From assembly GCF_048403405.1 (NCBI RefSeq), contig NZ_CP183129.1: DNA of 64,000 nt; one strand, given 5' to 3'. The notes beneath the pieces were generated by a model. That model was not told the origin of the DNA. It saw only the letters and a list, made by a program, of their open reading frames with translations, and made no database searches. Below, piece by piece: positions 2,624 through 54,487 of this stretch. This stretch comes from Escherichia coli (lineage in GTDB: Bacteria > Pseudomonadota > Gammaproteobacteria > Enterobacterales > Enterobacteriaceae). Position 1 is the stretch's first letter; the number at the start of each line of letters is the position of its first letter. A program made the translations under genes and the position numbers.

Positions 2624-2659
2624 CAATAAAAAAGGCCCCCCGATTTGGGAGGCCTTATT
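2624..2659 (-). promoter_or_regulatory. pheA attenuator terminator hairpin (AGGCCTCCC...GGGGGGCCT followed by U-run) between pheL and pheA
   Basis: GC-rich inverted repeat with T-run on the minus strand, placed between leader peptide ORF and pheA start. Confidence 0.7.
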
Positions 2660-2702
2660 GTTCGTCTTCGCATTCTGTTTCACACGACGAAACGCCTCCC
2701 AT

Positions 2703-2750
2703 TCAGGGGAAGGTAAAAAAGAATGCGAAGAAAAACGGTGTGTGTTTCAT
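2703..2750 (-). CDS. pheL: pheA leader peptide, 15 aa, [15 protein letters not shown] (7 Phe codons)
   Basis: Minus-strand ATGAAACACACACCGTTTTTCTTCGCATTCTTTTTTACCTTCCCCTGA read directly; too short for the ORF track. Confidence 0.85.
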   Translation of the reverse strand: [15 protein letters not shown]

Positions 2751-2804
2751 GTTTGTTTCCTTAAGTGACTTCAGTACAGTACCCGTACTGTTTTCACGCT
2801 GTCA

Positions 2805-6046: not shown

Positions 6047-6108
6047 CCTAAAGAATCAAGACGATCCGGTACGCGTGATTTTCTTTTCACATTAATCTGG
6101 TCAATAAC

Positions 6109-6136
6109 CTTGAATAATTGAGGGATGACCTCATTT
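6109..6136 (+). promoter_or_regulatory. Candidate sigma-32 heat-shock promoter of clpB (-35 CTTGAA, -10-like GACCTCATTTA)
   Basis: Match to sigma-32 consensus CTTGAAA / CCCCATnT upstream of clpB; clpB is a known heat-shock gene. Confidence 0.5.
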
Positions 6137-6175
6137 AATCTCCAGTAGCAACTTTGATCCGTTATGGGAGGAGTT

Positions 6176-8749
6176 ATGCGTCTGGATCGTCTTACTAATA
6201 AATTCCAGCTTGCTCTTGCCGATGCCCAATCACTTGCACTCGGGCACGACAACCAATTCATCGAACCACTTCATTTAATGAGCGCCCTGCTGAATCAGGA
6301 AGGGGGTTCGGTTAGTCCTTTATTAACATCCGCTGGCATTAATGCTGGCCAGTTGCGCACAGATATCAATCAGGCATTAAATCGTTTACCGCAGGTTGAA
6401 GGTACTGGTGGTGATGTCCAGCCATCACAGGATCTGGTGCGCGTTCTTAATCTTTGCGACAAGCTGGCGCAAAAACGTGGTGATAACTTTATCTCGTCAG
6501 AACTGTTCGTTCTGGCGGCACTTGAGTCTCGCGGCACGCTGGCCGACATCCTGAAAGCAGCAGGGGCGACCACCGCCAACATTACTCAAGCGATTGAACA
6601 AATGCGTGGAGGTGAAAGCGTGAACGATCAAGGTGCTGAAGACCAACGTCAGGCTTTGAAAAAATATACCATCGACCTTACCGAACGAGCCGAACAAGGC
6701 AAACTTGATCCGGTGATTGGTCGTGATGAAGAAATTCGCCGTACCATTCAGGTACTGCAACGTCGTACTAAAAATAACCCGGTACTGATTGGTGAACCAG
6801 GCGTCGGTAAAACTGCCATCGTTGAAGGTCTGGCGCAGCGTATTATCAACGGCGAAGTGCCGGAAGGGTTGAAAGGCCGCCGCGTACTGGCGCTGGATAT
6901 GGGCGCGCTGGTGGCTGGGGCGAAATATCGCGGTGAGTTTGAAGAACGTTTAAAAGGCGTGCTTAACGATCTTGCCAAACAGGAAGGCAACGTCATCCTG
7001 TTTATCGACGAATTACATACCATGGTCGGCGCGGGTAAAGCCGATGGCGCAATGGACGCCGGAAACATGCTGAAACCGGCGCTGGCGCGTGGTGAATTGC
7101 ACTGCGTAGGTGCCACGACGCTTGACGAATATCGCCAGTACATCGAAAAAGATGCTGCGCTGGAACGTCGTTTCCAGAAAGTGTTTGTTGCCGAGCCTTC
7201 TGTTGAAGACACCATTGCTATTCTGCGTGGCTTAAAAGAACGTTACGAACTGCACCACCATGTGCAAATTACTGACCCGGCAATTGTTGCAGCGGCGACG
7301 TTGTCTCATCGCTACATTGCTGACCGTCAGCTGCCGGATAAAGCCATCGACCTGATCGATGAAGCAGCATCCAGCATTCGTATGCAGATTGACTCAAAAC
7401 CAGAAGAACTCGACCGACTCGATCGTCGTATCATCCAGCTCAAACTGGAACAACAGGCGTTAATGAAAGAGTCTGATGAAGCCAGTAAAAAACGCCTGGA
7501 TATGCTCAACGAAGAACTGAGCGACAAAGAACGTCAGTACTCCGAGTTAGAAGAAGAGTGGAAAGCAGAGAAAGCATCGCTTTCTGGTACACAGACCATT
7601 AAAGCGGAACTGGAACAGGCGAAAATCGCTATTGAACAGGCTCGCCGTGTGGGTGACCTGGCGCGGATGTCTGAACTGCAATACGGCAAAATCCCGGAAC
7701 TGGAAAAGCAACTGGAAGCCGCAACGCAGCTCGAAGGCAAAACTATGCGTCTGTTGCGTAATAAAGTGACCGACGCCGAAATTGCTGAAGTGCTGGCGCG
7801 TTGGACGGGGATTCCGGTTTCTCGCATGATGGAAAGCGAGCGCGAAAAACTGCTGCGTATGGAGCAAGAGCTGCACCATCGCGTTATTGGTCAGAACGAA
7901 GCGGTTGATGCGGTATCTAACGCTATTCGTCGTAGCCGTGCGGGGCTGGCGGATCCAAATCGCCCGATTGGTTCATTCCTGTTCCTCGGCCCAACGGGTG
8001 TGGGGAAAACTGAGCTTTGTAAGGCGCTGGCGAACTTTATGTTTGATAGCGACGAGGCGATGGTCCGTATCGATATGTCCGAGTTTATGGAGAAACATTC
8101 GGTGTCTCGTCTGGTTGGTGCGCCTCCGGGATATGTTGGTTATGAAGAAGGTGGCTACCTGACCGAAGCTGTGCGTCGTCGTCCGTATTCCGTTATCCTG
8201 CTGGATGAAGTGGAAAAAGCGCATCCGGATGTCTTCAACATTCTGTTGCAGGTACTGGATGATGGGCGTCTGACTGACGGGCAGGGGAGAACGGTCGACT
8301 TCCGTAATACGGTTGTCATTATGACCTCTAACCTCGGTTCCGATTTGATTCAGGAACGCTTCGGTGAACTGGATTATGCGCACATGAAAGAGCTGGTGCT
8401 CGGTGTGGTAAGCCATAACTTCCGTCCGGAATTCATTAACCGTATTGATGAAGTGGTGGTCTTCCATCCGCTGGGTGAACAGCACATTGCCTCGATTGCG
8501 CAGATTCAGTTGAAACGTCTGTACAAACGTCTGGAAGAACGTGGTTATGAAATCCACATTTCTGACGAGGCGCTGAAACTGCTGAGCGAGAACGGTTACG
8601 ATCCGGTCTATGGCGCACGTCCTCTGAAACGTGCAATTCAGCAGCAGATTGAAAACCCGCTGGCACAGCAAATACTGTCTGGTGAATTGGTTCCGGGTAA
8701 AGTGATTCGCCTGGAAGTTAATGAAGACCGGATTGTCGCCGTCCAGTAA
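6176..8749 (+). CDS. clpB: Disaggregase chaperone ClpB (Hsp100, two AAA+ modules), 857 aa
   Basis: ORF track 6164..8749; start moved to ATG 6176 ([10 protein letters not shown]) with GGGAGGAG SD upstream; two Walker A motifs GEPGVGKT and GPTGVGKT. Confidence 0.95.
6606..6622 (+). other. Internal translation start inside clpB (SD-like GGAGGTGA then GTG codon 149) producing N-terminally truncated ClpB
   Basis: In-frame GTG at 6620..6622 preceded by GGAGGTGA; internal start at Val149 is established for E. coli ClpB. Confidence 0.6.
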
Positions 8750-9192: not shown

Positions 9193-10734
<1,542 letters not shown>

Positions 10735-10819
10735 CCTTAAAGAACTGTGCTTTGCAGTGCTCACACAGATTGTCTGATAGAAAGTGAAAAGCAAGGCGTC
10801 TTGCGAAGCAGACTGATAC

Positions 10820-10895
10820 GTCCCCTTCGTCTAGAGGCCCAGGACACCGCCCTTTCACGGCGGTAACAGGGGTTCGAATCCCCTAGGGGACGCCA
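10820..10895 (+). tRNA. gltW: tRNA-Glu (spacer tRNA, 76 nt with encoded CCA)
   Basis: GTCCCCTTCGTCTAGAGGCCCAGGACACCGCCCTTTCACGGCGGTAACAGGGGTTCGAATCCCCTAGGGGACGCCA read directly. Confidence 0.95.
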
Positions 10896-11088
10896 CTTGC
10901 TGGTTTGTGAGTGAAAGTCGCCGACCTTAATATCTCAAAACTCATCTTCGGGTGATGTTTGAGATATTTGCTCTTTAAAAATCTGGATCAAGCTGAAAAT
11001 TGAAACACTGAACAACGAAAGTTGTTCGTGAGTCTCTCAAATTTTCGCAACACGATGATGGATCGAAAGAAACATCTTCGGGTTGTGA

Positions 11089-13992
<2,904 letters not shown>

Positions 13993-14085
13993 ACAACGCC
14001 GAAGATGTTTTGGCGGATTGAGAGAAGATTTTCAGCCTGATACAGATTAAATCAGAACGCAGAAGCGGTCTGATGAAACAGAATT

Positions 14086-14205
14086 TGCCTGGCGGCCTTA
14101 GCGCGGTGGTCCCACCTGATCCCATGCCGAACTCAGAAGTGAAACGCCGTAGCGCCGATGGTAGTGTGGGGTCTCCCCATGCGAGAGTAGGGAACTGCCA
14201 GGCAT
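14086..14205 (+). rRNA. rrfG: 5S ribosomal RNA (120 nt)
   Basis: TGCCTGGCGGCC...CTGCCAGGCAT read directly. Confidence 0.96.
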
Positions 14206-28792: not shown

Positions 28793-31161
<2,369 letters not shown>

Positions 31162-31434
31162 CGGTTTGGTCAGCATAGCATCATGTTGTGCGATTAAACA
31201 CCTGCTATTTTAATATTTGTTACAGTGGCTAAACACGCTGACTCAGGGCGGCGAGAAAAAGAGAAGTTACTGGCTGGTGGAGGATTAGGTGGTGAAATAA
31301 AAAGGCCGTTGGGTTACTCTTCAGGCAGATAAATGGGCATTTCTACACAGATAATGCGATGTTCAGATTCTGTAGACTTATAATGATAGATAATGATCCG
31401 TCTACAGCATGACAAACAAAAACAGATGCGTTAC

Positions 31435-31462
31435 GGAACTTTACAAAAACGAGACACTCTAA
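31435..31462 (+). promoter_or_regulatory. Sigma-E dependent promoter of rpoE (-35 GGAACTT, 16-bp spacer, -10 TCTAA)
   Basis: Match to the sigma-E consensus about 85 bp upstream of rpoE; rpoE autoregulation is established. Confidence 0.7.
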
Positions 31463-31544
31463 CCCTTTGCTTGCTCAAATTGCAGCTAATGGAGTGGCGT
31501 TTCGATAGCGCGTGGAAATTTGGTTTGGGGAGACTTTACCTCGG

Positions 31545-32120
31545 ATGAGCGAGCAGTTAACGGACCAGGTCCTGGTTGAACGGGTCCAGAAGGGAGATCA
31601 GAAAGCCTTTAACTTACTGGTAGTGCGCTATCAGCATAAAGTGGCGAGTCTGGTTTCCCGCTATGTGCCGTCGGGTGATGTTCCCGATGTGGTACAAGAA
31701 GTTTTTATTAAAGCCTATCGTGCGCTGGATTCGTTCCGGGGAGATAGCGCTTTTTATACATGGCTGTATCGGATTGCTGTAAATACAGCGAAAAATTACC
31801 TGGTTGCTCAGGGGCGTCGTCCACCTTCCAGTGATGTGGATGCCATTGAAGCTGAAAACTTCGAAAGTGGCGGCGCGTTGAAAGAAATTTCGAACCCTGA
31901 GAACTTAATGTTGTCAGAAGAACTGAGACAGATAGTTTTCCGAACTATTGAGTCCCTCCCGGAAGATTTACGCATGGCAATAACCTTGCGGGAGCTGGAT
32001 GGCCTGAGCTATGAAGAGATAGCCGCTATCATGGATTGTCCGGTAGGTACGGTGCGTTCACGTATCTTCCGAGCGAGGGAAGCTATTGATAACAAAGTTC
32101 AACCGCTTATCAGGCGTTGA
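31545..32120 (+). CDS. rpoE: RNA polymerase sigma-E (sigma-24) envelope stress factor, 191 aa
   Basis: ORF track 31512..32120; start moved to ATG 31545 (MSEQLTDQVLVERVQKGD); translation. Confidence 0.95.
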   Translation: MSEQLTDQVLVERVQKGDQKAFNLLVVRYQHKVASLVSRYVPSGDVPDVVQEVFIKAYRALDSFRGDSAFYTWLYRIAVNTAKNYLVAQGRRPPSSDVDAIEAENFESGGALKEISNPENLMLSEELRQIVFRTIESLPEDLRMAITLRELDGLSYEEIAAIMDCPVGTVRSRIFRAREAIDNKVQPLIRR

Positions 32121-32803: not shown

Positions 32804-33759
32804 TGAAGCAACTTTGGTTTGCCATGTCATTAGTGACAGGTAGCCTGTTATTCTCTGCTAACGCCTCGGCCACTCCCGCGTCCGGGGCGTTATTACAGCA
32901 GATGAACCTGGCCAGTCAGTCACTGAATTACGAGCTGTCATTCATCAGCATCAATAAACAGGGTGTTGAGTCTCTGCGTTATCGACATGCACGCCTCGAT
33001 AACCGTCCTCTTGCACAATTGTTGCAAATGGATGGCCCGCGCCGGGAAGTGGTACAGCGCGGCAATGAAATCAGCTATTTTGAACCGGGACTTGAACCGT
33101 TCACGCTTAATGGCGATTACATTGTTGATTCTCTACCATCGCTCATCTATACCGATTTCAAACGCCTTTCTCCTTACTACGACTTTATCTCCGTCGGGCG
33201 CACGCGTATTGCTGATCGTCTTTGCGAAGTCATTCGTGTGGTTGCCCGAGATGGTACACGCTACAGCTACATCGTGTGGATGGACACCGAATCGAAATTA
33301 CCGATGCGGGTTGATCTCCTTGATCGCGATGGTGAAACGCTGGAACAATTTCGCGTGATTGCTTTTAATGTCAATCAGGATATCAGCAGCAGTATGCAGA
33401 CGTTGGCGAAGGCAAATTTGCCGCCGTTGCTTTCTGTTCCTGTAGGTGAAAAAGCTAAATTCAGCTGGACGCCAACCTGGTTGCCACAGGGTTTTAGCGA
33501 AGTTTCCAGTAGTCGACGTCCGCTACCGACGATGGACAACATGCCTATCGAATCACGTCTCTATTCCGACGGATTATTCAGCTTTTCGGTAAACGTTAAC
33601 CGCGCTACGCCATCGAGCACCGATCAGATGTTGCGCACCGGACGCAGAACCGTCAGTACAAGCGTACGTGATAACGCCGAAATCACCATTGTCGGTGAAC
33701 TGCCGCCGCAAACGGCGAAACGCATTGCCGAGAATATTAAGTTCGGGGCAGCGCAATGA
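32803..33759 (+). CDS. rseB: Sigma-E regulatory protein RseB (periplasmic), 318 aa
   Basis: ORF 32803..33759; signal peptide; start overlaps rseA stop (TAATG). Confidence 0.93.
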   Translation: MKQLWFAMSLVTGSLLFSANASATPASGALLQQMNLASQSLNYELSFISINKQGVESLRYRHARLDNRPLAQLLQMDGPRREVVQRGNEISYFEPGLEPFTLNGDYIVDSLPSLIYTDFKRLSPYYDFISVGRTRIADRLCEVIRVVARDGTRYSYIVWMDTESKLPMRVDLLDRDGETLEQFRVIAFNVNQDISSSMQTLAKANLPPLLSVPVGEKAKFSWTPTWLPQGFSEVSSSRRPLPTMDNMPIESRLYSDGLFSFSVNVNRATPSSTDQMLRTGRRTVSTSVRDNAEITIVGELPPQTAKRIAENIKFGAAQ

Positions 33760-34235
33760 TCAAAGAGTGGGCTACCGTCATCTCCTGGGAAAACGGGCAG
33801 GCGCTGGTTAGTTGTGATGTTAAAGCCTCATGCAGCAGCTGCGCTTCACGCGCCGGTTGCGGTAGCCGCGTGTTGAATAAACTTGGCCCGCAAACCACGC
33901 ATACCATTGTCGTACCCTGTGATGAGCCGTTAGTGCCGGGGCAAAAAGTAGAATTAGGAATCGCCGAAGGCAGCCTGCTTAGCTCCGCATTACTGGTTTA
34001 TATGTCGCCGTTGATGGGACTATTCCTCATCGCTTCACTATTTCAGCTACTCTTTGCTTCAGATATTGCAGCATTATGCGGTGCGATTCTCGGTGGCGTT
34101 GGTGGATTCCTGATTGCACGTGGCTGCTCTCGAAAGTTTGCTGCCCGGTCTGAATGGCAACCGATCATCTTAAGCGTGGCCTTGCCGCCTGGCCTTGTGC
34201 GATTTGAAACATCTTCGGAAGACGCGAGCCAGTGA
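33756..34235 (+). CDS. rseC: Sigma-E regulatory protein RseC, 159 aa
   Basis: ORF 33756..34235; overlaps rseB stop by 4 nt; membrane protein. Confidence 0.9.
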   Translation: MIKEWATVISWENGQALVSCDVKASCSSCASRAGCGSRVLNKLGPQTTHTIVVPCDEPLVPGQKVELGIAEGSLLSSALLVYMSPLMGLFLIASLFQLLFASDIAALCGAILGGVGGFLIARGCSRKFAARSEWQPIILSVALPPGLVRFETSSEDASQ

Positions 34236-34432
34236 TTTCACTGGCTTTGTTGCATTTTGCATAACAAATGCGAGGACGTTTCCAGATACCACAATCCATA
34301 CGGTATGAACATTTCCTCGCCTCAATGTTGTAGTGTAGAATGCGGCGTTTCTATTAATACAGACGTTAAGCTCAGAACAGCGACTTCTAAAAGCCTGGTT
34401 AACCGGGCATTAAGGCACAATAATCATACTTT

Positions 34433-36232
34433 ATGAAGAATATACGTAACTTTTCGATCATAGCTCACATTGACCACGGTAAATCGACGCTGTCTGACCG
34501 TATTATCCAGATCTGCGGTGGCCTGTCTGACCGTGAAATGGAGGCGCAGGTTCTCGATTCCATGGATCTTGAGCGTGAGCGTGGCATTACCATCAAAGCG
34601 CAAAGCGTGACGCTGGACTACAAAGCGTCTGACGGCGAAACCTATCAGCTTAACTTTATCGACACCCCGGGCCACGTTGACTTCTCTTATGAAGTTTCTC
34701 GTTCGCTGGCTGCCTGTGAAGGTGCATTGCTGGTGGTCGACGCCGGGCAGGGCGTAGAAGCGCAAACCCTGGCAAACTGCTACACCGCCATGGAAATGGA
34801 TCTCGAAGTGGTGCCGGTACTGAACAAGATTGACCTGCCGGCAGCCGATCCTGAACGCGTGGCGGAAGAAATTGAAGATATTGTCGGCATCGACGCCACC
34901 GACGCGGTGCGCTGTTCAGCGAAAACCGGCGTTGGCGTACAGGACGTTCTCGAACGTCTGGTGCGCGACATTCCGCCGCCGGAAGGCGATCCGGAAGGCC
35001 CGTTGCAGGCACTCATTATCGACTCCTGGTTCGACAACTACCTGGGCGTTGTTTCACTTATCCGTATTAAAAACGGCACCCTGCGTAAGGGCGACAAAGT
35101 GAAAGTCATGAGTACCGGGCAGACCTATAACGCCGACCGTCTGGGCATCTTCACGCCAAAACAGGTTGACCGTACTGAACTGAAATGCGGCGAAGTAGGC
35201 TGGCTGGTATGTGCGATTAAAGATATCCACGGCGCTCCAGTAGGCGATACCTTAACGCTGGCGCGTAATCCGGCAGAAAAGGCGCTGCCTGGCTTTAAGA
35301 AAGTCAAACCGCAGGTATACGCCGGTCTGTTCCCGGTAAGTTCCGACGACTATGAAGCCTTCCGTGATGCGCTGGGTAAACTCAGCCTGAACGATGCCTC
35401 ACTGTTCTATGAGCCGGAAAGCTCAAGCGCGCTGGGCTTTGGTTTCCGCTGCGGCTTCCTCGGTCTGCTGCACATGGAGATCATCCAGGAACGTCTGGAA
35501 CGTGAATACGATCTGGATCTGATTACCACTGCGCCGACCGTAGTGTATGAAGTTGAAACCACGTCAAGAGAAGTTATCTACGTCGACAGCCCATCCAAGC
35601 TGCCAGCGGTAAATAACATCTACGAACTGCGCGAGCCGATTGCAGAATGTCACATGCTGCTGCCGCAGGCATATCTCGGCAACGTTATTACGCTGTGCGT
35701 AGAAAAACGCGGCGTGCAGACCAATATGGTTTACCACGGTAATCAGGTGGCGCTGACGTACGAGATCCCGATGGCGGAAGTGGTGCTCGATTTCTTCGAT
35801 CGCCTGAAATCTACCTCGCGTGGTTATGCGTCTCTGGATTACAACTTCAAACGCTTCCAGGCGTCCGACATGGTACGTGTAGACGTATTAATCAACGGTG
35901 AACGTGTTGATGCGCTGGCGTTGATCACCCACCGTGATAATTCGCAAAACCGCGGTCGCGAGCTGGTGGAGAAGATGAAAGATCTAATCCCACGCCAGCA
36001 GTTTGATATCGCTATTCAGGCAGCGATTGGTACGCACATCATTGCGCGCTCCACCGTGAAACAGCTGCGTAAAAACGTACTGGCTAAATGTTATGGCGGC
36101 GATATCAGCCGTAAGAAAAAGCTGCTGCAGAAGCAGAAAGAAGGTAAGAAACGCATGAAGCAGATCGGTAACGTCGAGCTGCCGCAGGAAGCGTTCCTCG
36201 CCATTCTGCACGTCGGCAAAGACAACAAATAA
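34433..36232 (+). CDS. lepA: Elongation factor 4 (LepA) GTPase, 599 aa
   Basis: ORF 34433..36232; [10 protein letters not shown]1 motif and conserved C-terminus. Confidence 0.95.
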
Positions 36233-37269: not shown

Positions 37270-37367
37270 TATTTATGAGATAAATCTCCCGTGGCTAACG
37301 ACATCCCCCGTCGTTGTGTATAGAATATTCCCCCGAAGTTTAAGGTTGGCACCTCCAGGTTGCCACG

Positions 37368-37461
37368 GCACACGAAACAGCGTTGGTCCCCATATACCGG
37401 TAAACTGAAACTGCAGCGAAGCAGTTAGCAGAACCATGTATATCAGGTCTGTTTCGTGTGC
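37368..37461 (+). promoter_or_regulatory. rnc 5' leader long-range stem (GCACACGAAACAG pairs with CTGTTTCGTGTGC); candidate RNase III autoregulatory processing structure
   Basis: 13-nt perfect complementarity read directly; rnc leader cleavage by RNase III is established. Confidence 0.55.
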
Positions 37462-37464
37462 TGA

Positions 37465-39077
<1,613 letters not shown>

Positions 39078-40940: not shown

Positions 40941-40963
40941 AATAATACCGTTCTCTTTAAAAA

Positions 40964-41004
40964 GTAAAACCCCCGAACTGGTAAGGAACAGGGGGTTTAC
41001 TTTA
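40964..41004 (+). terminator. Intrinsic terminator after acpS (GTAAAACCCCC...GGGGGTTTAC plus T-rich tail)
   Basis: Inverted repeat read directly. Confidence 0.7.
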
Positions 41005-41359
41005 CAACTTTAATTTTGTGCAGCACGCACCCTCAACAAGAGCGATTATGGATCAGGGCGGTTATCTTTTACAAGCAACTTGCAATCTTTAGCATAAAAA
41101 CTCGAGCCTTTACGAAGAAAACAATATTGATGGAAAGATTAACGTGACCGCCAATTCGGAAGTACATTAAAATTGGCTTCGTTATTGGCGATTTTGCTGT
41201 GCTTTATACCATGCCACAGAATTCCCCCATTGAAACGAGTGGTGTCGTCAAAGCTCTGGTGTGGAGTGCAGCATGCACCCTCAATAACTCGCACGTTCAG
41301 TTTTGGGGAGATGTAAGGGCTAATCTGAACGGCTGCATTCCTTGTTTAAGGAAAAACGA

Positions 41360-46014: not shown

Positions 46015-49000
46015 ATGATGGAAATTCTGCGTGGTTCGCCTGCATTGTCGGCATTCCGAATCAACAAACTGCTGGCACGTTTTCAGGCTGCCAGGCTCCC
46101 GGTTCACACTATTTACGCCGAGTATGTCCATTTTGCTGACCTCAATGCGCCGTTAAACGATGATGAGCACGCACAACTTGAACGCCTGCTGAAATATGGC
46201 CCGGCACTCGCCAGCCACGCCCCGCAAGGCAAACTCCTGCTGGTGACCCCGCGTCCTGGCACCATCTCTCCCTGGTCTTCGAAAGCGACCGATATTGCCC
46301 ATAACTGCGGGCTGCAACAGGTAAACCGTCTTGAGCGCGGCGTGGCTTACTATATAGAAGCCGGTACGCTGACCAATGAACAATGGCAGCAGGTTACCGC
46401 TGAACTGCACGACCGCATGATGGAAACGGTCTTTTTTGCTTTAGATGATGCAGAGCAGCTGTTTGCACACCATCAACCGACTCCGGTCACCAGCGTTGAT
46501 TTGCTGGGGTTGGGCCGTCAGGCGCTAATCGACGCTAACCTGCGTCTTGGCCTGGCACTGGCGGAAGATGAAATTGACTATTTGCAGGATGCTTTCACAA
46601 AGCTTGGTCGTAACCCGAACGACATCGAACTGTATATGTTTGCCCAGGCGAACTCCGAGCACTGCCGCCACAAAATTTTTAACGCCGACTGGGTTATCGA
46701 TGGTGAACAGCAGCCGAAATCGCTGTTTAAGATGATCAAAAACACCTTCGAAACTACGCCGGATCACGTTCTCTCTGCTTATAAAGATAACGCCGCCGTC
46801 ATGGAAGGGTCTGAAGTGGGCCGCTACTTTGCTGACCACGAAACGGGCCGCTACGATTTCCATCAGGAACCGGCGCATATTCTGATGAAAGTTGAAACCC
46901 ACAACCACCCGACGGCGATTTCTCCGTGGCCGGGCGCGGCGACCGGTTCCGGCGGTGAAATCCGCGATGAAGGTGCCACCGGACGCGGCGCGAAGCCGAA
47001 AGCTGGTTTGGTTGGTTTCTCCGTTTCCAACCTGCGAATTCCTGGCTTCGAACAGCCGTGGGAAGAAGATTTCGGTAAGCCTGAGCGCATTGTCACCGCG
47101 CTGGACATCATGACCGAAGGCCCGCTGGGTGGCGCGGCATTTAACAACGAATTTGGTCGTCCGGCACTGAACGGCTACTTCCGTACTTATGAAGAAAAAG
47201 TGAACAGCCACAATGGCGAAGAGCTGCGCGGTTATCACAAACCGATCATGCTGGCGGGCGGGATCGGCAACATTCGTGCCGATCACGTACAAAAAGGCGA
47301 GATCAACGTTGGTGCGAAGCTGGTCGTTCTCGGCGGCCCGGCAATGAACATCGGTCTTGGCGGCGGCGCGGCGTCTTCCATGGCGTCTGGTCAGTCTGAT
47401 GCCGACCTCGACTTCGCTTCCGTACAGCGCGACAACCCGGAGATGGAGCGTCGCTGCCAGGAAGTGATCGACCGTTGCTGGCAGCTTGGTGATGCCAACC
47501 CAATCCTGTTTATCCACGACGTTGGCGCAGGCGGTCTTTCTAACGCCATGCCGGAACTGGTGAGCGACGGCGGGCGCGGCGGTAAATTCGAACTGCGCGA
47601 TATCCTGAGCGACGAACCGGGCATGAGCCCGCTGGAAATCTGGTGTAACGAATCCCAGGAACGCTACGTGCTGGCGGTTGCTGCCGATCAGTTACCGCTG
47701 TTTGACGAACTGTGTAAGCGTGAGCGCGCGCCATACGCGGTGATTGGTGAAGCGACCGAAGAACTGCATCTTTCTTTGCACGATCGTCATTTTGATAATC
47801 AGCCGATCGATCTGCCGCTGGACGTCCTGCTTGGTAAAACGCCGAAGATGACCCGCGAAGTACAAACGCTGAAAGCGAAGGGTGATGCGCTGGTTCGTGA
47901 AGGGATTACCATTGCTGACGCGGTGAAACGCGTGCTGCACCTGCCGACCGTGGCGGAGAAAACTTTCCTGGTGACCATTGGTGACCGCAGCGTAACCGGC
48001 ATGGTAGCGCGCGATCAGATGGTGGGTCCGTGGCAGGTGCCGGTCGCTAACTGCGCGGTCACTACCGCCAGCCTCGATAGCTACTACGGCGAAGCGATGG
48101 CGATTGGCGAGCGTGCGCCGGTTGCGCTGCTGGATTTCGCCGCCTCTGCCCGTCTGGCGGTCGGTGAAGCGTTAACCAATATTGCCGCAACACAGATTGG
48201 CGATATCAAACGCATTAAACTTTCCGCCAACTGGATGGCGGCGGCAGGCCACCCTGGTGAAGATGCGGGCCTGTATGAAGCCGTTAAAGCTGTGGGCGAA
48301 GAACTTTGTCCGGCGCTGGGCCTGACGATCCCGGTGGGTAAAGACTCTATGTCGATGAAAACCCGCTGGCAGGAAGGTAACGAAGAGCGCGAAATGACGT
48401 CGCCGCTGTCGCTGGTGATTTCTGCATTTGCCCGCGTGGAAGATGTGCGTCACACCATCACGCCGCAGCTTTCTACCGAAGATAACGCATTACTGCTGAT
48501 TGAACTGGGCAAAGGCAATAACGCGCTGGGCGCAACGGCGCTGGCGCAGGTTTATCGTCAGCTTGGCGACAAACCGGCAGATGTACGCGATGTCGCGCAA
48601 CTGAAAGGTTTCTATGACGCGGTTCAGGCGCTGGTAGCACAGTGTAAGCTGCTCGCGTACCACGACCGCTCTGATGGCGGCCTGCTGGTAACGCTGGCGG
48701 AAATGGCCTTTGCTGGTCATTGCGGCATTGACGCGGATATCGCCACTCTGGGTGACGATCGCCTGGCGGCGTTGTTTAACGAAGAACTGGGTGCGGTGAT
48801 TCAGGTTCGTGCCGCTGACCGTGAAGCAGTTGAAGCGGTACTGGCACAGCATGGGCTTGCGGATTGCGTCCATTATGTTGGGCAGGCGGTTTCCGGTGAC
48901 CGTTTTGTGATTACCGCCAACGGGCAGACTGTATTCAGCGAAAGCCGCACCACGTTGCGTGTCTGGTGGGCAGAAACTACCTGGCAGATGCAGCGCCTGC

Positions 49001-49902
49001 GTGACAACCCGGAGTGTGCCGACCAGGAGCACCAGGCGAAATCAAACGACGCCGATCCGGGCCTGAATGTAAAACTGTCGTTCGATATCAACGAAGATGT
49101 GGCAGCACCGTATATTGCCACTGGCGCACGTCCGAAAGTTGCTGTGCTGCGTGAGCAGGGCGTGAACTCGCATGTTGAAATGGCGGCAGCTTTCCACCGT
49201 GCAGGCTTCGATGCTATCGACGTGCATATGAGCGACCTGCTGGCTGGACGCACGGGCCTGGAGGATTTCCACGCCCTGGTCGCGTGCGGTGGTTTCTCCT
49301 ACGGTGATGTGCTGGGTGCCGGTGAAGGTTGGGCGAAGTCTATCCTGTTCAATGACCGTGTACGCGATGAGTTTGCAACCTTCTTCCATCGTCCGCAAAC
49401 GCTGGCGCTGGGGGTATGTAACGGTTGCCAGATGATGTCTAACCTGCGCGAACTGATCCCAGGTAGTGAGTTGTGGCCACGTTTTGTGCGTAACACCTCC
49501 GATCGCTTTGAAGCGCGTTTCAGCCTGGTTGAAGTGACCCAAAGCCCGTCACTGCTATTGCAGGGGATGGTGGGCTCGCAAATGCCGATTGCTGTGTCTC
49601 ACGGTGAAGGGCGTGTGGAAGTGCGTGATGCGGCGCATCTGGCGGCACTGGAAAGCAAAGGGCTGGTGGCACTGCGCTATGTCGATAACTTCGGCAAAGT
49701 CACTGAAACCTACCCGGCTAACCCGAACGGTTCTCCGAACGGTATTACGGCGGTCACGACTGAAAGTGGTCGAGTCACCATTATGATGCCGCACCCGGAA
49801 CGTGTTTTCCGTACTGTCAGCAACTCCTGGCATCCGGAAAACTGGGGCGAGGATGGGCCGTGGATGCGTATTTTCCGCAATGCACGTAAGCAGTTGGGGT
49901 AA
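46015..49902 (+). CDS. purL: Phosphoribosylformylglycinamidine synthase (large single-chain form), 1295 aa
   Basis: ORF 46015..49902; translation; C-terminal glutamine amidotransferase GVCNGCQM motif. Confidence 0.96.
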
Positions 49903-49959
49903 GCCGTCAACCCATTGGTTTTGCAGCCGGATGAGGCATTAAGCACCAACTACTATTAT

Positions 49960-49986
49960 AAGCTCCCAACTTCGGGAGCTTTTTTG
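49960..49986 (+). terminator. Intrinsic terminator after purL (AAGCTCCCAA-CTTC-GGGAGCTT plus T-run)
   Basis: Inverted repeat with T-run read directly. Confidence 0.75.
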
Positions 49987-50004
49987 TGTCTGTAAATCAC
50001 GACA
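49987..50004. promoter_or_regulatory. GlrR-type enhancer site 1 (TGTC-N10-GACA)
   Basis: Exact TGTC-N10-GACA read directly upstream of the glmY sigma-54 promoter. Confidence 0.6.
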
Positions 50005-50019
50005 ATGGGTGGTTTGCCG

Positions 50020-50037
50020 TGTCGCTTTCTGGCGACA
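50020..50037. promoter_or_regulatory. GlrR-type enhancer site 2 (TGTC-N10-GACA)
   Basis: Exact TGTC-N10-GACA read directly. Confidence 0.6.
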
Positions 50038-50082
50038 TTTAACTCATTGATTTTAATATTATCTAATAAGTTTATCTTAAGT

Positions 50083-50100
50083 TGTCTCTTTTTAGCGACA
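50083..50100. promoter_or_regulatory. GlrR-type enhancer site 3 (TGTC-N10-GACA)
   Basis: Exact TGTC-N10-GACA read directly, about 100 bp upstream of the -24/-12 element. Confidence 0.6.
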
Positions 50101-50189
50101 CAGTGGCTGATTTACATTCAAATAGCGAAGAAGCCATAAATCCCTCAAAGCAGCATATAATCAGTACGTTACCAAACTATTTTCTTTAT

Positions 50190-50205
50190 TGGCACAGTTA
50201 CTGCA
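50190..50205 (+). promoter_or_regulatory. Sigma-54 promoter (-24 TGGCAC, -12 CTGCA) of glmY
   Basis: TGGCACagttaCTGCA with correct GG-to-GC spacing; predicted start about 12 nt downstream coincides with the glmY 5' end. Confidence 0.75.
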
Positions 50206-50216
50206 TAATAGTAACC

Positions 50217-50401
50217 AGTGGCTCATTCACCGACTTATGTCAGCCCCTTCGGGACGTGCTACATAAAATACGAATGACGCACAACAAGGTGCCTGCCGTC
50301 CAACTTCTGATATCAGCGTAGCTATATCAACCATCGGGCGAAACGTCGAGTTAGGCACCGCCTTATTCCATAACAAAGCCGGGTAATTCCCGGCTTTGTT
50401 G
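50217..50401 (+). ncRNA. glmY: Small regulatory RNA GlmY (controls glmS via GlmZ/RapZ)
   Basis: Begins AGTGGCTCATTCACCGACTTATGTCAGCCCCTTCGGGACG, ends at intrinsic terminator AAAGCCGGGTAATTCCCGGCTTTGTTGT; position between purL and glrK; ends approximate. Confidence 0.8.
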
Positions 50402-50458
50402 TATCTGAACTTCCCCTCGGTTAGCATCAGGCTATTCGCGTCTGACGAGAGTAACACC

Positions 50459-51886
50459 TTGAAACGCTGGCCCGTTTTTCCCCGCTCATTACGACAACTG
50501 GTAATGCTGGCATTTTTGCTGATTCTGCTGCCCCTGTTGGTGCTGGCATGGCAAGCCTGGCAAAGCCTGAATGCACTTAGCGATCAGGCAGCGCTGGTTA
50601 ACCGCACTACGCTTATTGATGCCCGGCGCAGTGAAGCGATGACCAACGCGGCACTGGAGATGGAGCGCAGCTACCGTCAGTACTGCGTGCTGGACGACCC
50701 TACGCTTGCGAAGGTTTATCAAAGCCAGCGCAAGCGTTACAGCGAAATGCTTGATGCCCACGCAGGCGTGCTGCCGGACGATAAACTCTACCAGGCATTA
50801 CGTCAGGATTTGAACAATCTGGCTCAACTTCAGTGTAACAACAGTGGTCCTGATGCCGCCGCCGCCGCGCGTCTTGAAGCCTTTGCCAGTGCCAATACCG
50901 AAATGGTGCAGGCCACGCGCACAGTAGTGTTCTCTCGTGGGCAGCAACTTCAGCGTGAAATCGCCGAACGTGGGCAATATTTTGGTTGGCAATCGCTGGT
51001 GCTATTTCTGGTGAGTCTGGTGATGGTGCTACTTTTCACGAGGATGATTATCGGTCCGGTGAAAAATATCGAGCGCATGATCAACCGGCTGGGGGAAGGG
51101 CGTTCTCTGGGCAATAGTGTCTCGTTCAGTGGACCGAGCGAGTTACGCTCGGTTGGGCAACGTATTCTTTGGTTAAGTGAGCGCCTGTCATGGCTGGAAT
51201 CCCAACGCCATCAATTTTTAAGACATTTATCTCATGAATTAAAAACGCCACTGGCGAGTATGCGCGAGGGCACTGAATTACTGGCTGACCAGGTTGTCGG
51301 GCCGCTTACGCCAGAGCAAAAAGAGGTGGTGAGCATTCTTGATAGCAGCAGCCGCAATTTGCAAAAGTTGATCGAACAACTGCTTGATTACAACCGTAAA
51401 CAGGCGGACGGTGCGGTGGAACTGGAGAATGTTGAGTTAGCGCCACTGGTGGAAATGGTGGTTTCTGCTCATAGCCTGCCCGCGCGGGCTAAAATGATGC
51501 ATACCGATGTCGATCTCAAAGCAACAGCTTGCCTGGCGGAGCCAATGCTGCTGATGAGCGTACTGGATAATCTTTACTCCAATGCGGTGCACTACGGGGC
51601 TGAATCCGGTAACATTTGCCTTCGCAGCAGTTTACATGGCGCGCGGGTTTATATTGATGTCATCAATACAGGAACACCCATTCCGCAAGAGGAACGCGCC
51701 ATGATCTTCGAACCCTTTTTTCAGGGAAGCCACCAGCGAAAAGGGGCGGTGAAGGGCAGCGGTCTGGGATTAAGCATTGCCAGGGATTGTATTCGCCGTA
51801 TGCAAGGGGAACTGTATCTGGTCGACGAGAGCGGGCAAGACGTTTGCTTCCGCATTGAATTGCCGTCGTCGAAAAACACGAAATAA
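50459..51886 (+). CDS. glrK: Sensor histidine kinase GlrK (QseE), 475 aa
   Basis: ORF track 50396..51886; start placed at TTG 50459 (MKRWPVFPRS) from remembered K-12 length; HAMP-like region, H-box SHELKTPL and ATPase domain. Confidence 0.88.
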   Translation: MKRWPVFPRSLRQLVMLAFLLILLPLLVLAWQAWQSLNALSDQAALVNRTTLIDARRSEAMTNAALEMERSYRQYCVLDDPTLAKVYQSQRKRYSEMLDAHAGVLPDDKLYQALRQDLNNLAQLQCNNSGPDAAAAARLEAFASANTEMVQATRTVVFSRGQQLQREIAERGQYFGWQSLVLFLVSLVMVLLFTRMIIGPVKNIERMINRLGEGRSLGNSVSFSGPSELRSVGQRILWLSERLSWLESQRHQFLRHLSHELKTPLASMREGTELLADQVVGPLTPEQKEVVSILDSSSRNLQKLIEQLLDYNRKQADGAVELENVELAPLVEMVVSAHSLPARAKMMHTDVDLKATACLAEPMLLMSVLDNLYSNAVHYGAESGNICLRSSLHGARVYIDVINTGTPIPQEERAMIFEPFFQGSHQRKGAVKGSGLGLSIARDCIRRMQGELYLVDESGQDVCFRIELPSSKNTK

Positions 51887-52050: not shown

Positions 52051-52764
52051 ATGCGACACATTTTTCAACGATTATTGCCCCGACGGCTGTGGCTGGCAGG
52101 GCTGCCATGTCTGGCATTGCTGGGTTGTGTGCAGAGTCACAATAAACCAGCCATTGATACGCCAGCAGAAGAAAAAATTCCGGTTTATCAACTGGCTGAC
52201 TATCTTTCTACTGAATGTAGCGACATCTGGGCGCTGCAAGGTAAATCAACCGAAACCAATCCGCTTTACTGGCTGCGGGCGATGGATTGTGCTGATCGTT
52301 TAATGCCTGCGCAGTCGCGTCAGCAAGCTCGCCAATATGACGACGGCAGCTGGCAAAAGACCTTTAAACAAGGGATTTTGCTCGCCGACGCCAAAATTAC
52401 GCCGTATGAGCGCCGCCAGCTGGTCGCGCGCATTGATGCGCTAAGTACCGAGATCCCGGCACAGGTTCGCCCTCTGTATCAACTCTGGCGCGACGGTCAG
52501 GCGCTGCAACTGCAACTGGCGGAAGAGCGCCAACGCTACGGCAAACTCCAGCAATCCAGCGACAGCGAGCTGGATACATTGCGCCAGCAACATCACGTTC
52601 TACAGCAGCAACTGGAACTCACCACCCGCAAGCTGGAAAACCTGACCGATATTGAACGCCAGCTCTCGACCCGCAAACCGGCTGGAAATTTCTCGCCGGA
52701 TACGCCGCACGAGGGTGAAAAGCCCGCGCCATCCATCCATGAGGTCACTCCTGATGAGCCATAA
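52051..52764 (+). CDS. yfhG: Lipoprotein YfhG (QseG), accessory to the GlrK/GlrR system, 237 aa
   Basis: ORF track 52045..52764; ATG at 52051 (MRHIFQRLLP); lipobox LLGCVQ. Confidence 0.85.
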   Translation: MRHIFQRLLPRRLWLAGLPCLALLGCVQSHNKPAIDTPAEEKIPVYQLADYLSTECSDIWALQGKSTETNPLYWLRAMDCADRLMPAQSRQQARQYDDGSWQKTFKQGILLADAKITPYERRQLVARIDALSTEIPAQVRPLYQLWRDGQALQLQLAEERQRYGKLQQSSDSELDTLRQQHHVLQQQLELTTRKLENLTDIERQLSTRKPAGNFSPDTPHEGEKPAPSIHEVTPDEP

Positions 52765-54088
52765 ACCTGCGCATTTATTATTGGTCGATGACGATCCGGG
52801 ATTGCTGAAACTGCTTGGCCTGCGCCTGATCAGCGAAGGCTACAGTGTGGTCACGGCGGAAAGTGGCGCTGAAGGATTACGGGTACTGAATCGCGAAAAA
52901 GTAGATTTAGTTATCAGCGACCTGCGGATGGATGAAATGGACGGTATGCAGCTGTTTGCTGAAATTCAGAAAGTGCAGCCTGGAATGCCAGTAATTATTC
53001 TTACCGCGCATGGTTCTATTCCCGATGCCGTTGCTGCAACACAGCAGGGAGTGTTCAGTTTCCTCACCAAGCCTGTCGATAAAGACGCGCTATATCAGGC
53101 AATTGACGATGCGCTGGAACAATCCGCGCCAGCCACCGATGAACGCTGGCGCGAGGCGATTGTCACCCGCAGCCCGCTGATGCTGCGTTTGCTGGAACAG
53201 GCGCGGCTGGTGGCGCAATCAGACGTCAGCGTTTTGATTAATGGCCAGAGCGGCACCGGGAAAGAGATTTTCGCCCAGGCTATCCACAACGCCAGCCCGC
53301 GTAACAGCAAGCCGTTTATTGCTATTAACTGTGGTGCATTGCCCGAGCAATTGCTGGAGTCGGAACTGTTTGGTCATGCGCGTGGCGCGTTTACTGGCGC
53401 TGTCAGCAATCGCGAAGGTTTATTCCAGGCGGCGGAAGGCGGTACGCTATTTCTCGATGAGATTGGCGATATGCCCGCACCGTTGCAGGTTAAACTGCTG
53501 CGCGTGTTGCAGGAGCGTAAAGTGCGCCCGCTGGGCAGTAACCGCGATATTGATATCGACGTGCGGATTATTTCTGCCACTCACCGCGACCTGCCAAAAG
53601 CGATGGCGCGCGGGGAATTCCGCGAAGATCTCTATTACCGCCTCAACGTTGTCAGCCTGAAAATTCCGGCACTGGCGGAGCGTACAGAAGACATTCCGCT
53701 ACTGGCAAATCACCTGTTGCGCCAGGCGGCAGAGCGACATAAACCGTTTGTCCGCGCGTTCTCCACCGATGCGATGAAACGCCTGATGACCGCGAGCTGG
53801 CCGGGTAATGTGCGCCAGTTGGTCAACGTGATTGAACAGTGCGTGGCGCTGACCTCATCTCCGGTGATTAGCGATGCATTAGTAGAGCAGGCGCTGGAGG
53901 GCGAAAACACGGCGCTGCCAACCTTTGTTGAAGCACGTAATCAGTTTGAACTCAACTATTTGCGTAAGCTGCTGCAAATCACCAAAGGCAACGTCACCCA
54001 CGCGGCGAGAATGGCGGGGCGCAACCGGACAGAATTTTATAAACTGCTTTCCCGACACGAGCTGGATGCAAACGATTTCAAGGAATGA
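52754..54088 (+). CDS. glrR: Sigma-54 dependent response regulator GlrR (QseF), 444 aa
   Basis: ORF track 52652..54088; start moved to ATG 52754 ([16 protein letters not shown]), overlapping yfhG by 11 nt; receiver domain, AAA+ GESGTGKE and C-terminal HTH. Confidence 0.92.

Positions 54089-54112: not shown

Positions 54113-54487
<375 letters not shown>

What the first reader, a model, noticed from the sequence alone, without database searches (positions are those of the whole stretch)
49987..50401. glmY sRNA with sigma-54 promoter and three evenly built TGTC-N10-GACA enhancer sites
Between purL and glrK I read three exact TGTC-N10-GACA motifs (49987, 50020, 50083), a -24/-12 promoter TGGCAC-N5-CTGCA (50190..50205), and a terminator-bounded RNA of about 185 nt starting AGTGGCTCATTCACC. 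This is the architecture described for glmY activation by the GlrK/GlrR two-component system encoded immediately downstream. The track shows no ORF here because the product is a non-coding RNA.
Basis: partly seen in the sequence, partly recalled or inferred. Interest (0 to 1): 0.45.

Follow-up and report, generated by a model that had tools for sequence, protein, structure and literature searches.

The report
Known E. coli glmY small RNA gene

Summary
The observation and the interpretation both hold. Window 50217-50400 (+) is glmY. It scores 146 bits on Rfam GlmY_tke1 against a gathering score of 33. It is base-for-base identical to the ncRNA b4441 annotated in E. coli K-12.

- **Enhancer sites:** the three exact TGTC-N10-GACA motifs at 49987, 50020 and 50083 are the only ones in the 64 kb.
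- **Promoter:** TGGCAC-N5-CTGCA at 50190-50205 is the only such match. It lies 12 nt upstream of the RNA 5' end.
- **Neighbours:** purL lies upstream; glrK/qseE, qseG and glrR/qseF lie downstream.
- **Conservation:** in 44 purL-glmY-glrK loci from other Enterobacterales, the three sites keep their 33 bp and 63 bp spacing, and the RNA helices show compensatory changes.

- the overlapping sigma-70 promoter (-10 CATAAT, 50204-50209);
- two IHF consensus sites (50040-50052 and 50159-50171);
- processing of the 184 nt RNA to a 148 nt active form;
- the way GlmY acts, as a decoy that sequesters RapZ, which spares GlmZ and raises GlmS synthesis.

All of this is published (Reichenbach 2009; Göpel 2011; Khan 2020). 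Novelty: already known. Interest: very low.

The parts
46015..49902 (+). purL (phosphoribosylformylglycinamidine synthase), the upstream flanking gene
   Evidence: NCBIfam NF003672 scores 2268 bits against a cutoff of 783. Annotated as purL in the 100%-identical record NZ_CP128875.1.
49960..49981 (+). purL intrinsic terminator hairpin. Its T-tract runs directly into ABS1.
   Evidence: Terminator scan: 8-pair stem, 5 G-C pairs, tail TTTTGTGTCT.
49987..50004 (.). GlrR/QseF binding site ABS1 (TGTCTGTAAATCACGACA), at -230 to -213 from the transcription start
   Evidence: Exact motif. At the aligned position, 29 of 44 Enterobacterales sequences are exact and 10 have one mismatch. Reported as dispensable and less conserved (PMC3045617).
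50020..50037 (.). GlrR/QseF binding site ABS2 (TGTCGCTTTCTGGCGACA), at -197 to -180
   Evidence: Exact motif. Exact in 42 of 44 sequences at the aligned position. Reported as essential for sigma-54 promoter activity (PMC3045617).
50040..50052 (-). IHF consensus site 1 (AATCAATGAGTTA on the minus strand), between ABS2 and ABS3
   Evidence: Exact WATCARNNNNTTR match. 43 of 44 sequences have at most 1 mismatch at the aligned position. The literature reports the distal IHF site as essential for the sigma-54 promoter (PMC3045617). Equating this motif with the published 'site 1' is my inference from its position.
50083..50100 (.). GlrR/QseF binding site ABS3 (TGTCTCTTTTTAGCGACA), at -134 to -117
   Evidence: Exact motif. 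11 of 44 sequences are exact and 29 have one mismatch, usually TGTT for TGTC. Reported as essential (PMC3045617).
50159..50171 (+). IHF consensus site 2 (AATCAGTACGTTA), between ABS3 and the promoter
   Evidence: Exact WATCARNNNNTTR match. Forms a conserved island (TATCAnTnnGTTAA) in alignment A3. 29 of 44 sequences have at most 1 mismatch. Function is inferred.
50190..50205 (+). Sigma-54 promoter TGGCAC-N5-CTGCA. GG is at 50191-50192 and GC at 50203-50204.
   Evidence: Only match in the window. It ends 11 nt before the RNA 5' end. The literature reports it as conserved in all 39 enterobacterial genomes examined (PMC3045617). In my own locus set its conservation follows from the search pattern and is not evidence.
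50204..50209 (+). -10 hexamer CATAAT of the overlapping weak sigma-70 promoter, which shares the same start site
   Evidence: The sequence is read directly. It was characterised by mutation in E. coli according to PMC3045617. Exact in 22 of 44 sequences, confined to the Escherichia/Citrobacter/Enterobacter-type genera. The consensus scan does not call it, because the -35 is poor.
50217..50400 (+). glmY primary transcript, 184 nt
   Evidence: Identical to K-12 ncRNA glmY b4441 (2691157-2691340, complement) by alignment A1. Rfam RF00128 scores 146 bits over 50217-50364. MFE is -67.2 kcal/mol, z = -4.87.
50217..50364 (+). Approximate extent of the processed 148 nt GlmY, the form reported to be active in vivo
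   Evidence: The Rfam model covers exactly 148 nt. The literature reports 184 nt processed at the 3' end to 148 nt (PMC4152352). The exact cleavage position in this window is inferred.
50370..50402 (+). glmY intrinsic terminator hairpin with a G+C core (50378-50383/50389-50394) and tail TTTGTTGT
   Evidence: 14-pair stem in the MFE fold. 11 of its 14 pairs show changes on both sides across genera, although the alignment is patchy at this end.
50459..51886 (+). glrK/qseE sensor histidine kinase, TTG start
   Evidence: Annotated as qseE/GlrK in NZ_CP128875.1 and as glrK b2556 in K-12 at the aligned position. Histidine-kinase families match, but none reaches its equivalog cutoff.
52051..52764 (+). 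qseG, outer-membrane lipoprotein required for QseE/QseF activity
   Evidence: NCBIfam NF007997 scores 356 bits against a cutoff of 234. Annotation. Role from PMC6075780.
52754..54088 (+). glrR/qseF, the sigma-54-dependent response regulator that binds ABS1-3
   Evidence: NCBIfam NF011695 GlrR equivalog scores 980 bits against a cutoff of 763. Annotation.

Best explanation
The region is the glmY gene of E. coli with its complete, already characterised control region.

**Transcription**
- Phosphorylated GlrR (QseF) is encoded three genes downstream and is phosphorylated by GlrK (QseE) with the help of QseG.
- GlrR binds the three TGTC-N10-GACA sites at -230, -197 and -134.
- IHF bends the intervening DNA at one or both consensus sites.
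- GlrR then uses ATP hydrolysis to open the sigma-54 holoenzyme complex at TGGCAC-N5-CTGCA.
- A weak sigma-70 promoter (-10 CATAAT) overlaps the -12 element and starts at the same base. It supplies basal expression.

**The RNA**
- Transcription starts at 50217 and stops at the hairpin ending near 50400, giving a 184 nt RNA.
- The RNA is trimmed at the 3' end to about 148 nt.

**Action**
- When glucosamine-6-phosphate is scarce, ligand-free RapZ stimulates QseE/QseF, so glmY transcription rises.
- GlmY mimics GlmZ and sequesters RapZ.
- RapZ can then no longer hand GlmZ to RNase E.
- Intact GlmZ pairs with the glmS mRNA and raises GlmS synthesis.

**Shown here:** the identity of the RNA, the presence and conservation of all the motifs, the RNA structure with covariation, and the gene neighbourhood.

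**Taken from the literature and not tested here:** GlrR and IHF binding, rpoN dependence, processing, and the RapZ decoy mechanism.
For: - Rfam GlmY_tke1 scores 146 bits against a gathering score of 33, with E = 2.4e-33, full model length and no truncation.
- The window is identical to K-12 across 50156-50458. That stretch includes the whole annotated glmY b4441, the promoter and IHF site 2.
- The region is present in 5425 of 5426 complete E. coli genomes. The RNA is at least 99% identical in 4296 of them.
- The only three exact TGTC-N10-GACA motifs and the only TGGCAC-N5-YTGCW match in 64 kb lie here, in the published arrangement.
- In 46 Enterobacterales loci retrieved by pattern, all with a glrK and/or purL match, the sites sit at a conserved 32-33 bp and 62-64 bp spacing. 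The 74 chance pattern hits in unrelated taxa have no exact site.
- Specified bases of the elements are 90% conserved across genera, against 52% for the remaining positions.
- None of the 15 differences from K-12 in the purL-glrK spacer touches a specified base or the RNA.
- On the RNAalifold structure, 99.6% of cells are paired and 9 of 31 pairs have compensatory changes. No shuffle out of 500 reaches the observed values. Slid controls give 28-41% paired.
- The GlrR equivalog, QseG and the kinase lie downstream.
- Mechanism from the literature: PMC3045617, PMC4152352, PMC7073468, PMC6075780.
Against: - Nothing in the sequence contradicts this reading.
- No expression data for this strain were available, so the transcript ends, the processing and the rpoN/GlrR dependence are taken from K-12 work.
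- The simple scans called neither the sigma-70 promoter nor the glmY terminator. This reflects the scan thresholds rather than absence.
- The cross-genus loci were selected by a pattern that contains the -24/-12 motif and GCTCATTC. Conservation of those two elements in my set is therefore circular.
Confidence: 0.97

Rival explanations
1. The RNA is the paralogous small RNA GlmZ rather than GlmY. It would then pair directly with glmS mRNA instead of acting as a decoy.
For: GlmY and GlmZ belong to one Rfam clan (CL00011) and share the 5' GCTCATTC motif and overall fold.
Against: cmscan keeps only the best clan member, and that is GlmY at 146 bits. The sequence is 100% identical to K-12 glmY b4441. 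The purL-glrK position is the glmY position in all 46 loci examined.
Confidence: 0.01
2. The stretch encodes a small protein, either the 79-aa ORF at 50082-50321 (+) or the 76-aa ORF at 50227-50457 (-), and the RNA structure is incidental.
For: Both ORFs appear in the mechanical ORF list.
Against: The length of the homologous 148-nt body differs by a non-multiple of 3 in 25 of 44 relatives. Substitutions follow base-pairing rather than codon patterns. Neither K-12 nor the PGAP records annotate a CDS here.
Confidence: 0.01
3. glmY is not a free-standing gene here but the 5' leader of a glmY-qseEGF operon transcript. The sigma-54 promoter would then mainly drive the two-component system by read-through.
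For: Only 58 nt separate the glmY 3' end from the glrK start. Co-transcription of glmY-qseE-qseG-qseF is reported for Proteus mirabilis (abstract of PMC8745638). The terminator tail is interrupted (TTTGTTGT), so it may leak.
Against: For E. coli K-12, which is identical to the window from 50156 to 50458, qseEGF is reported to have its own sigma-70 promoter starting 25 bp upstream of qseE, with no transcriptional autoregulation (PMC6075780; PMC3045617). A strong 14-pair hairpin ends the RNA. Some read-through would add to the main explanation rather than replace it.
Confidence: 0.05

Closest known systems
E. coli K-12 glmY (b4441; formerly sroF/tke1), Rfam RF00128 GlmY_tke1
   Same: The 184 nt are identical, as are the promoter, IHF site 2 and the downstream spacer. 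The purL-glmY-glrK-qseG-glrR-glnB order is the same.
   Different: There are only 15 differences in non-conserved spacer DNA: 7 between purL and ABS1, 1 just after ABS2, and 7 at 50123-50155. No functional base differs.
GlrR/QseF-dependent sigma-54 promoters of glmY and glmZ in Enterobacteriaceae (Reichenbach 2009; Göpel 2011, PMC3045617)
   Same: Three TGTCN10GACA activator sites more than 100 bp upstream, two IHF-like sites flanking ABS3, a -24/-12 promoter, and in the Escherichia group an overlapping sigma-70 -10 CATAAT.
   Different: Nothing. The window matches the published E. coli arrangement. In Yersinia, Pantoea and Erwinia-type relatives the CATAAT is absent and the spacer between ABS3 and the promoter is longer.
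GlmZ (Rfam RF00083, same clan CL00011)
   Same: Homologous fold and 5' motif. Both bind RapZ (PMC4152352).
   Different: GlmZ pairs with glmS mRNA and sits at another locus. The window RNA is GlmY by model score, identity and synteny.

Membership tests
GlmY small RNA (Rfam RF00128) | Covariance-model score at or above the curated gathering score over the full model | tested here: met
   146 bits against 33, model positions 1-163 of 163, E = 2.4e-33. Best member of clan CL00011.
GlmY small RNA (Rfam RF00128) | Sequence identity to the experimentally defined E. coli K-12 glmY (b4441) | tested here: met
   184 of 184 identical in alignment A1.
GlmY small RNA (Rfam RF00128) | Conserved stem-loop architecture supported by covariation | tested here: met
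   MFE z = -4.87. 9 of 31 consensus pairs are compensatory, 99.6% of cells are paired, and 0 of 500 shuffles reach the observed values.
GlmY small RNA (Rfam RF00128) | Position between purL and glrK/qseE | tested here: met
   The same synteny holds in 46 Enterobacterales loci.
GlmY small RNA (Rfam RF00128) | A 184 nt transcript processed to 148 nt that binds and sequesters RapZ | not testable with these tools
   Known for K-12 (PMC4152352; PMC7073468). Inferred here from sequence identity.
GlrR/QseF-activated sigma-54 promoter | -24 GG and -12 GC elements with canonical spacing, placed just upstream of the start site | tested here: met
   TGGCACAGTTACTGCA at 50190-50205 is unique in the window, and the start is at 50217.
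GlrR/QseF-activated sigma-54 promoter | Three TGTCN10GACA activator binding sites more than 100 bp upstream | tested here: met
   Sites at 49987, 50020 and 50083, that is -230, -197 and -134. Positions are conserved across genera.
GlrR/QseF-activated sigma-54 promoter | IHF site(s) between the activator sites and the promoter | tested here: met
   Two exact WATCARNNNNTTR matches at 50040-50052 (-) and 50159-50171 (+), both on conserved islands. Actual binding was not tested.
GlrR/QseF-activated sigma-54 promoter | The cognate enhancer-binding protein is encoded in the genome | tested here: met
   GlrR equivalog NF011695 scores 980 bits against a cutoff of 763, at 52754-54088.
GlrR/QseF-activated sigma-54 promoter | Transcription depends on rpoN, glrR and IHF | not testable with these tools
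   Shown for K-12 (PMC3045617). rpoN is not in the window.

The most novel reading that the evidence does not exclude
The cluster of 7 substitutions relative to K-12 at 50123-50155 lies in the spacer between ABS3 and IHF site 2. Only 39 of 5425 E. coli genomes match the window's purL-glrK intergenic region at 99% identity or more. These substitutions might change intrinsic DNA curvature and so tune the GlrR-dependent output of the glmY promoter in this lineage.
Probability: 0.04. Interest if true: 0.15.

Novelty: already known. Interest (0 to 1): 0.05.

Why it matters
It matters only as a correct annotation. GlmY controls synthesis of the cell-envelope precursor glucosamine-6-phosphate and feeds into virulence regulation in pathogenic E. 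coli. Yet the gene has no annotated feature in any of the 18 RefSeq E. coli records the searches listed. Only K-12 carries it. Nothing here changes what is known about the system.

Tried and rejected
- **Sigma-70 and terminator scan of 49850-50550.** It found no sigma-70 promoter and only the purL terminator. It missed the published CATAAT promoter, which has a poor -35. It also missed the glmY terminator, whose stem runs into the T-tract. I treated this as a limit of the scan's thresholds.
- **Pattern scan of genome contigs.** 74 of the hits were chance matches in unrelated taxa, which I used as negative controls. It returned no glmZ loci, so I could not compare the glmY and glmZ promoters.
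- **Conservation of the -24/-12 and 5' motifs in that set.** It follows from the search pattern, so I did not count it as evidence.
- **Small-ORF reading.** Rejected because of frame-breaking length differences.
- **GlmZ reading.** Rejected on identity and synteny.
- **Search for QseF sites and a -24/-12 upstream of rpoE at 31138-31545.** Nothing convincing was found at 1 or 2 mismatches or fewer, and I did not pursue it.
- **Motif counts.** The exact-motif counts alone are only marginally above shuffles: 6 of 100 for the ABS motif and 12 of 100 for the promoter. The case rests on clustering, position and conservation, not on counts.

Full report
**Observation**

- TGTC-N10-GACA occurs exactly three times in the 64 kb window, at 49987, 50020 and 50083.
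- The count alone is not compelling. Shuffles give a mean of 0.85, and 6 of 100 reach three.
- All three sites lie within 114 bp. From the rate I estimate the chance of that at about 4e-6.
- TGGCAC-N5-YTGCW occurs once, at 50190-50205. 0.14 are expected.
- It ends 11 nt before AGTGGCTCATTCACC at 50217.

**Identity of the RNA**

- Rfam's GlmY_tke1 model (RF00128) matches 50217-50364 on the + strand. The score is 146 bits against a gathering score of 33, over the full model, with E = 2.4e-33.
- It is the only RNA family hit in 45-55 kb.
- E. coli K-12 MG1655 annotates ncRNA glmY (b4441) at 2691157-2691340 on the complement strand, between purL and glrK.
- Aligning the two intergenic regions (A1) places b4441 at window 50217-50400. 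All 184 bases are identical.
- The purL-glrK intergenic region (window 49903-50458) is 100% identical to E. coli strain TUM14771 and is found in 5425 of 5426 complete E. coli genomes.
- The RNA itself is at least 99% identical in 4296 of those genomes.

**Structure**

- The 187 nt from 50217 fold to -67.2 kcal/mol, with z = -4.87 against dinucleotide shuffles.
- The fold has a 5' stem-loop, a branched central stem-loop and a 14-pair terminal hairpin (50370-50383/50389-50402). The tail is TTTGTTGT.
- I retrieved related loci with one DNA-pattern scan of the species-representative genome collection.
- Of the 120 stretches returned, 46 are Enterobacterales loci. Each has a glrK match, a purL match or both beside the element.
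- The genera include Citrobacter, Enterobacter, Pluralibacter, Yersinia, Pantoea, Erwinia, Morganella and Tatumella.
- The other 74 are chance hits in unrelated taxa.
- On the alignment of 45 distinct RNAs (A2), the RNAalifold consensus has 31 pairs, and 99.6% of cells are paired.
- 9 of those pairs carry compensatory changes. No shuffle out of 500 reaches any observed measure. Sliding the 3' partners drops pairing to 28-41%.
- The window's own MFE structure, terminator included, gives 28 of 59 pairs with changes on both sides. That structure was derived from one member, and the alignment is ragged at the 3' end.
- The length of the 148 nt body differs by a non-multiple of three in 25 of 44 relatives. 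This excludes the two mechanical ORFs that overlap it.

**Control region**

- In the same loci the three activator sites sit at conserved offsets from TGGCAC. In the Escherichia/Citrobacter/Enterobacter group these are -203, -170 and -107.
- ABS1-ABS2 is always 32-33 bp and ABS2-ABS3 is always 62-64 bp.
- That is about 3 and 6 helical turns, which would put the sites on one face of the helix. This last point is my inference.
- None of the 74 chance hits has an exact site.
- In alignment A3, ABS2 is exact in 42 of 44 sequences.
- ABS1 is exact in 29 of 44 and has one mismatch in 10.
- ABS3 is exact in 11 of 44 and has one mismatch in 29.
- This matches the published statement that deviations occur mostly in ABS1 and ABS3 (PMC3045617).
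- Two exact matches to the IHF consensus WATCARNNNNTTR lie at 50040-50052 (-) and 50159-50171 (+). Both sit on conserved islands.
- The literature reports two IHF-like regions flanking ABS3. Mutating the distal one abolishes sigma-54 promoter activity.
- The -10 hexamer CATAAT of the published overlapping sigma-70 promoter is at 50204-50209. It is conserved only in the Escherichia-type genera.
- Specified bases of all the elements are 90% conserved across genera, against 52% for the remaining positions between 49987 and 50216.
- Caveat: the loci were selected with a pattern that contains the -24/-12 motif and GCTCATTC. Conservation of those two elements in my set is circular.

**Variation against K-12**

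- The window differs from K-12 at 15 positions in the purL-glrK spacer.
- None lies in a specified base of any element or in the RNA.
- Seven cluster at 50123-50155, a stretch that is unconserved across genera.
- This is the pattern expected of neutral change around constrained sites.

**Neighbourhood**

| Gene | Window coordinates | Evidence |
|---|---|---|
| purL | 46015-49902 | NF003672, 2268 bits |
| glrK/qseE | 50459-51886, TTG start | annotation |
| qseG | 52051-52764 | NF007997, 356 bits |
| glrR/qseF | 52754-54088 | NF011695, 980 bits against cutoff 763 |
| glnB | 54149-54487 | NF008111, 243 bits against cutoff 202 |

The order is the same as in K-12.

**Mechanism**

The following is taken from the literature. 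It applies here because the sequence is identical to K-12.
- GlrR binds the three TGTCN10GACA motifs and activates the sigma-54 promoter with the help of IHF.
- A weak sigma-70 promoter starts at the same base (PMC3045617; PMC6075780).
- GlmY is made as 184 nt and trimmed to 148 nt.
- It mimics GlmZ and sequesters the RNase E adaptor RapZ. GlmZ then survives and activates glmS translation (PMC4152352).
- RapZ is itself the glucosamine-6-phosphate receptor.
- In its ligand-free form RapZ stimulates QseE/QseF phosphorylation and so glmY transcription. GlmY binding closes a negative feedback loop (PMC7073468).

**Verdict**

The feature is the textbook glmY locus, it is already known, and it deserves a very low interest score. 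The only unexcluded novel reading is that the strain-specific spacer substitutions tune promoter output. I consider that unlikely.

Noticed in passing
window 50217-50400, and the hits listed: All 18 listed RefSeq (PGAP-annotated) E. coli records show no annotated feature under glmY. Only K-12 NC_000913.3 carries ncRNA b4441.
   Followed up: partly
window 50399-50434: [quoted passage not shown] By eye, -10 TAGCAT is at 50422-50427 and -35 TTGTAT is at 50399-50404. That puts the -35 inside the glmY terminator tail. The consensus scan did not call this promoter, which matches only 7 of 12 bases.
   Followed up: partly
window 31138-32120: rpoE (about 31545-32120, +) is the other gene reported to have a QseF-activated sigma-54 promoter, and it lies in the same window. 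I found no exact or clustered one-mismatch TGTC-N10-GACA upstream of it. I also found no -24/-12 match with 2 mismatches or fewer.
   Followed up: partly
window 50123-50155: Seven of the 15 differences from K-12 in the purL-glrK spacer cluster in these 33 bp between ABS3 and IHF site 2. The stretch is unconserved across genera. Only 39 of 5425 E. coli genomes are at least 99% identical to the window over the purL-glrK intergenic region.
   Followed up: partly
window 49960-50004: The T-tract of the purL terminator hairpin (49960-49981) runs straight into ABS1 (49987). The upstream gene's terminator therefore abuts the glmY enhancer. A GCTTTTTT run precedes ABS1 in many genera in alignment A3.
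   Followed up: no
window 52754-52764: qseG and glrR overlap by 11 nt, as they do in K-12. This suggests translational coupling.
   Followed up: no
window 2626-41037 (several sites): Other known RNA features found by Rfam: Phe leader at 2626-2751 (-); RyfD at 6057-6195 (+); a complete rRNA operon at 9193-14203, with tRNA-Glu at 10820-10895 and StyR-44 at 10973-11081; AsrC antisense of rseC at 33720-34551 (-); the rncO leader at 37335-37549 (+); ohsC antitoxin RNA at 40961-41037 (-).
   Followed up: no
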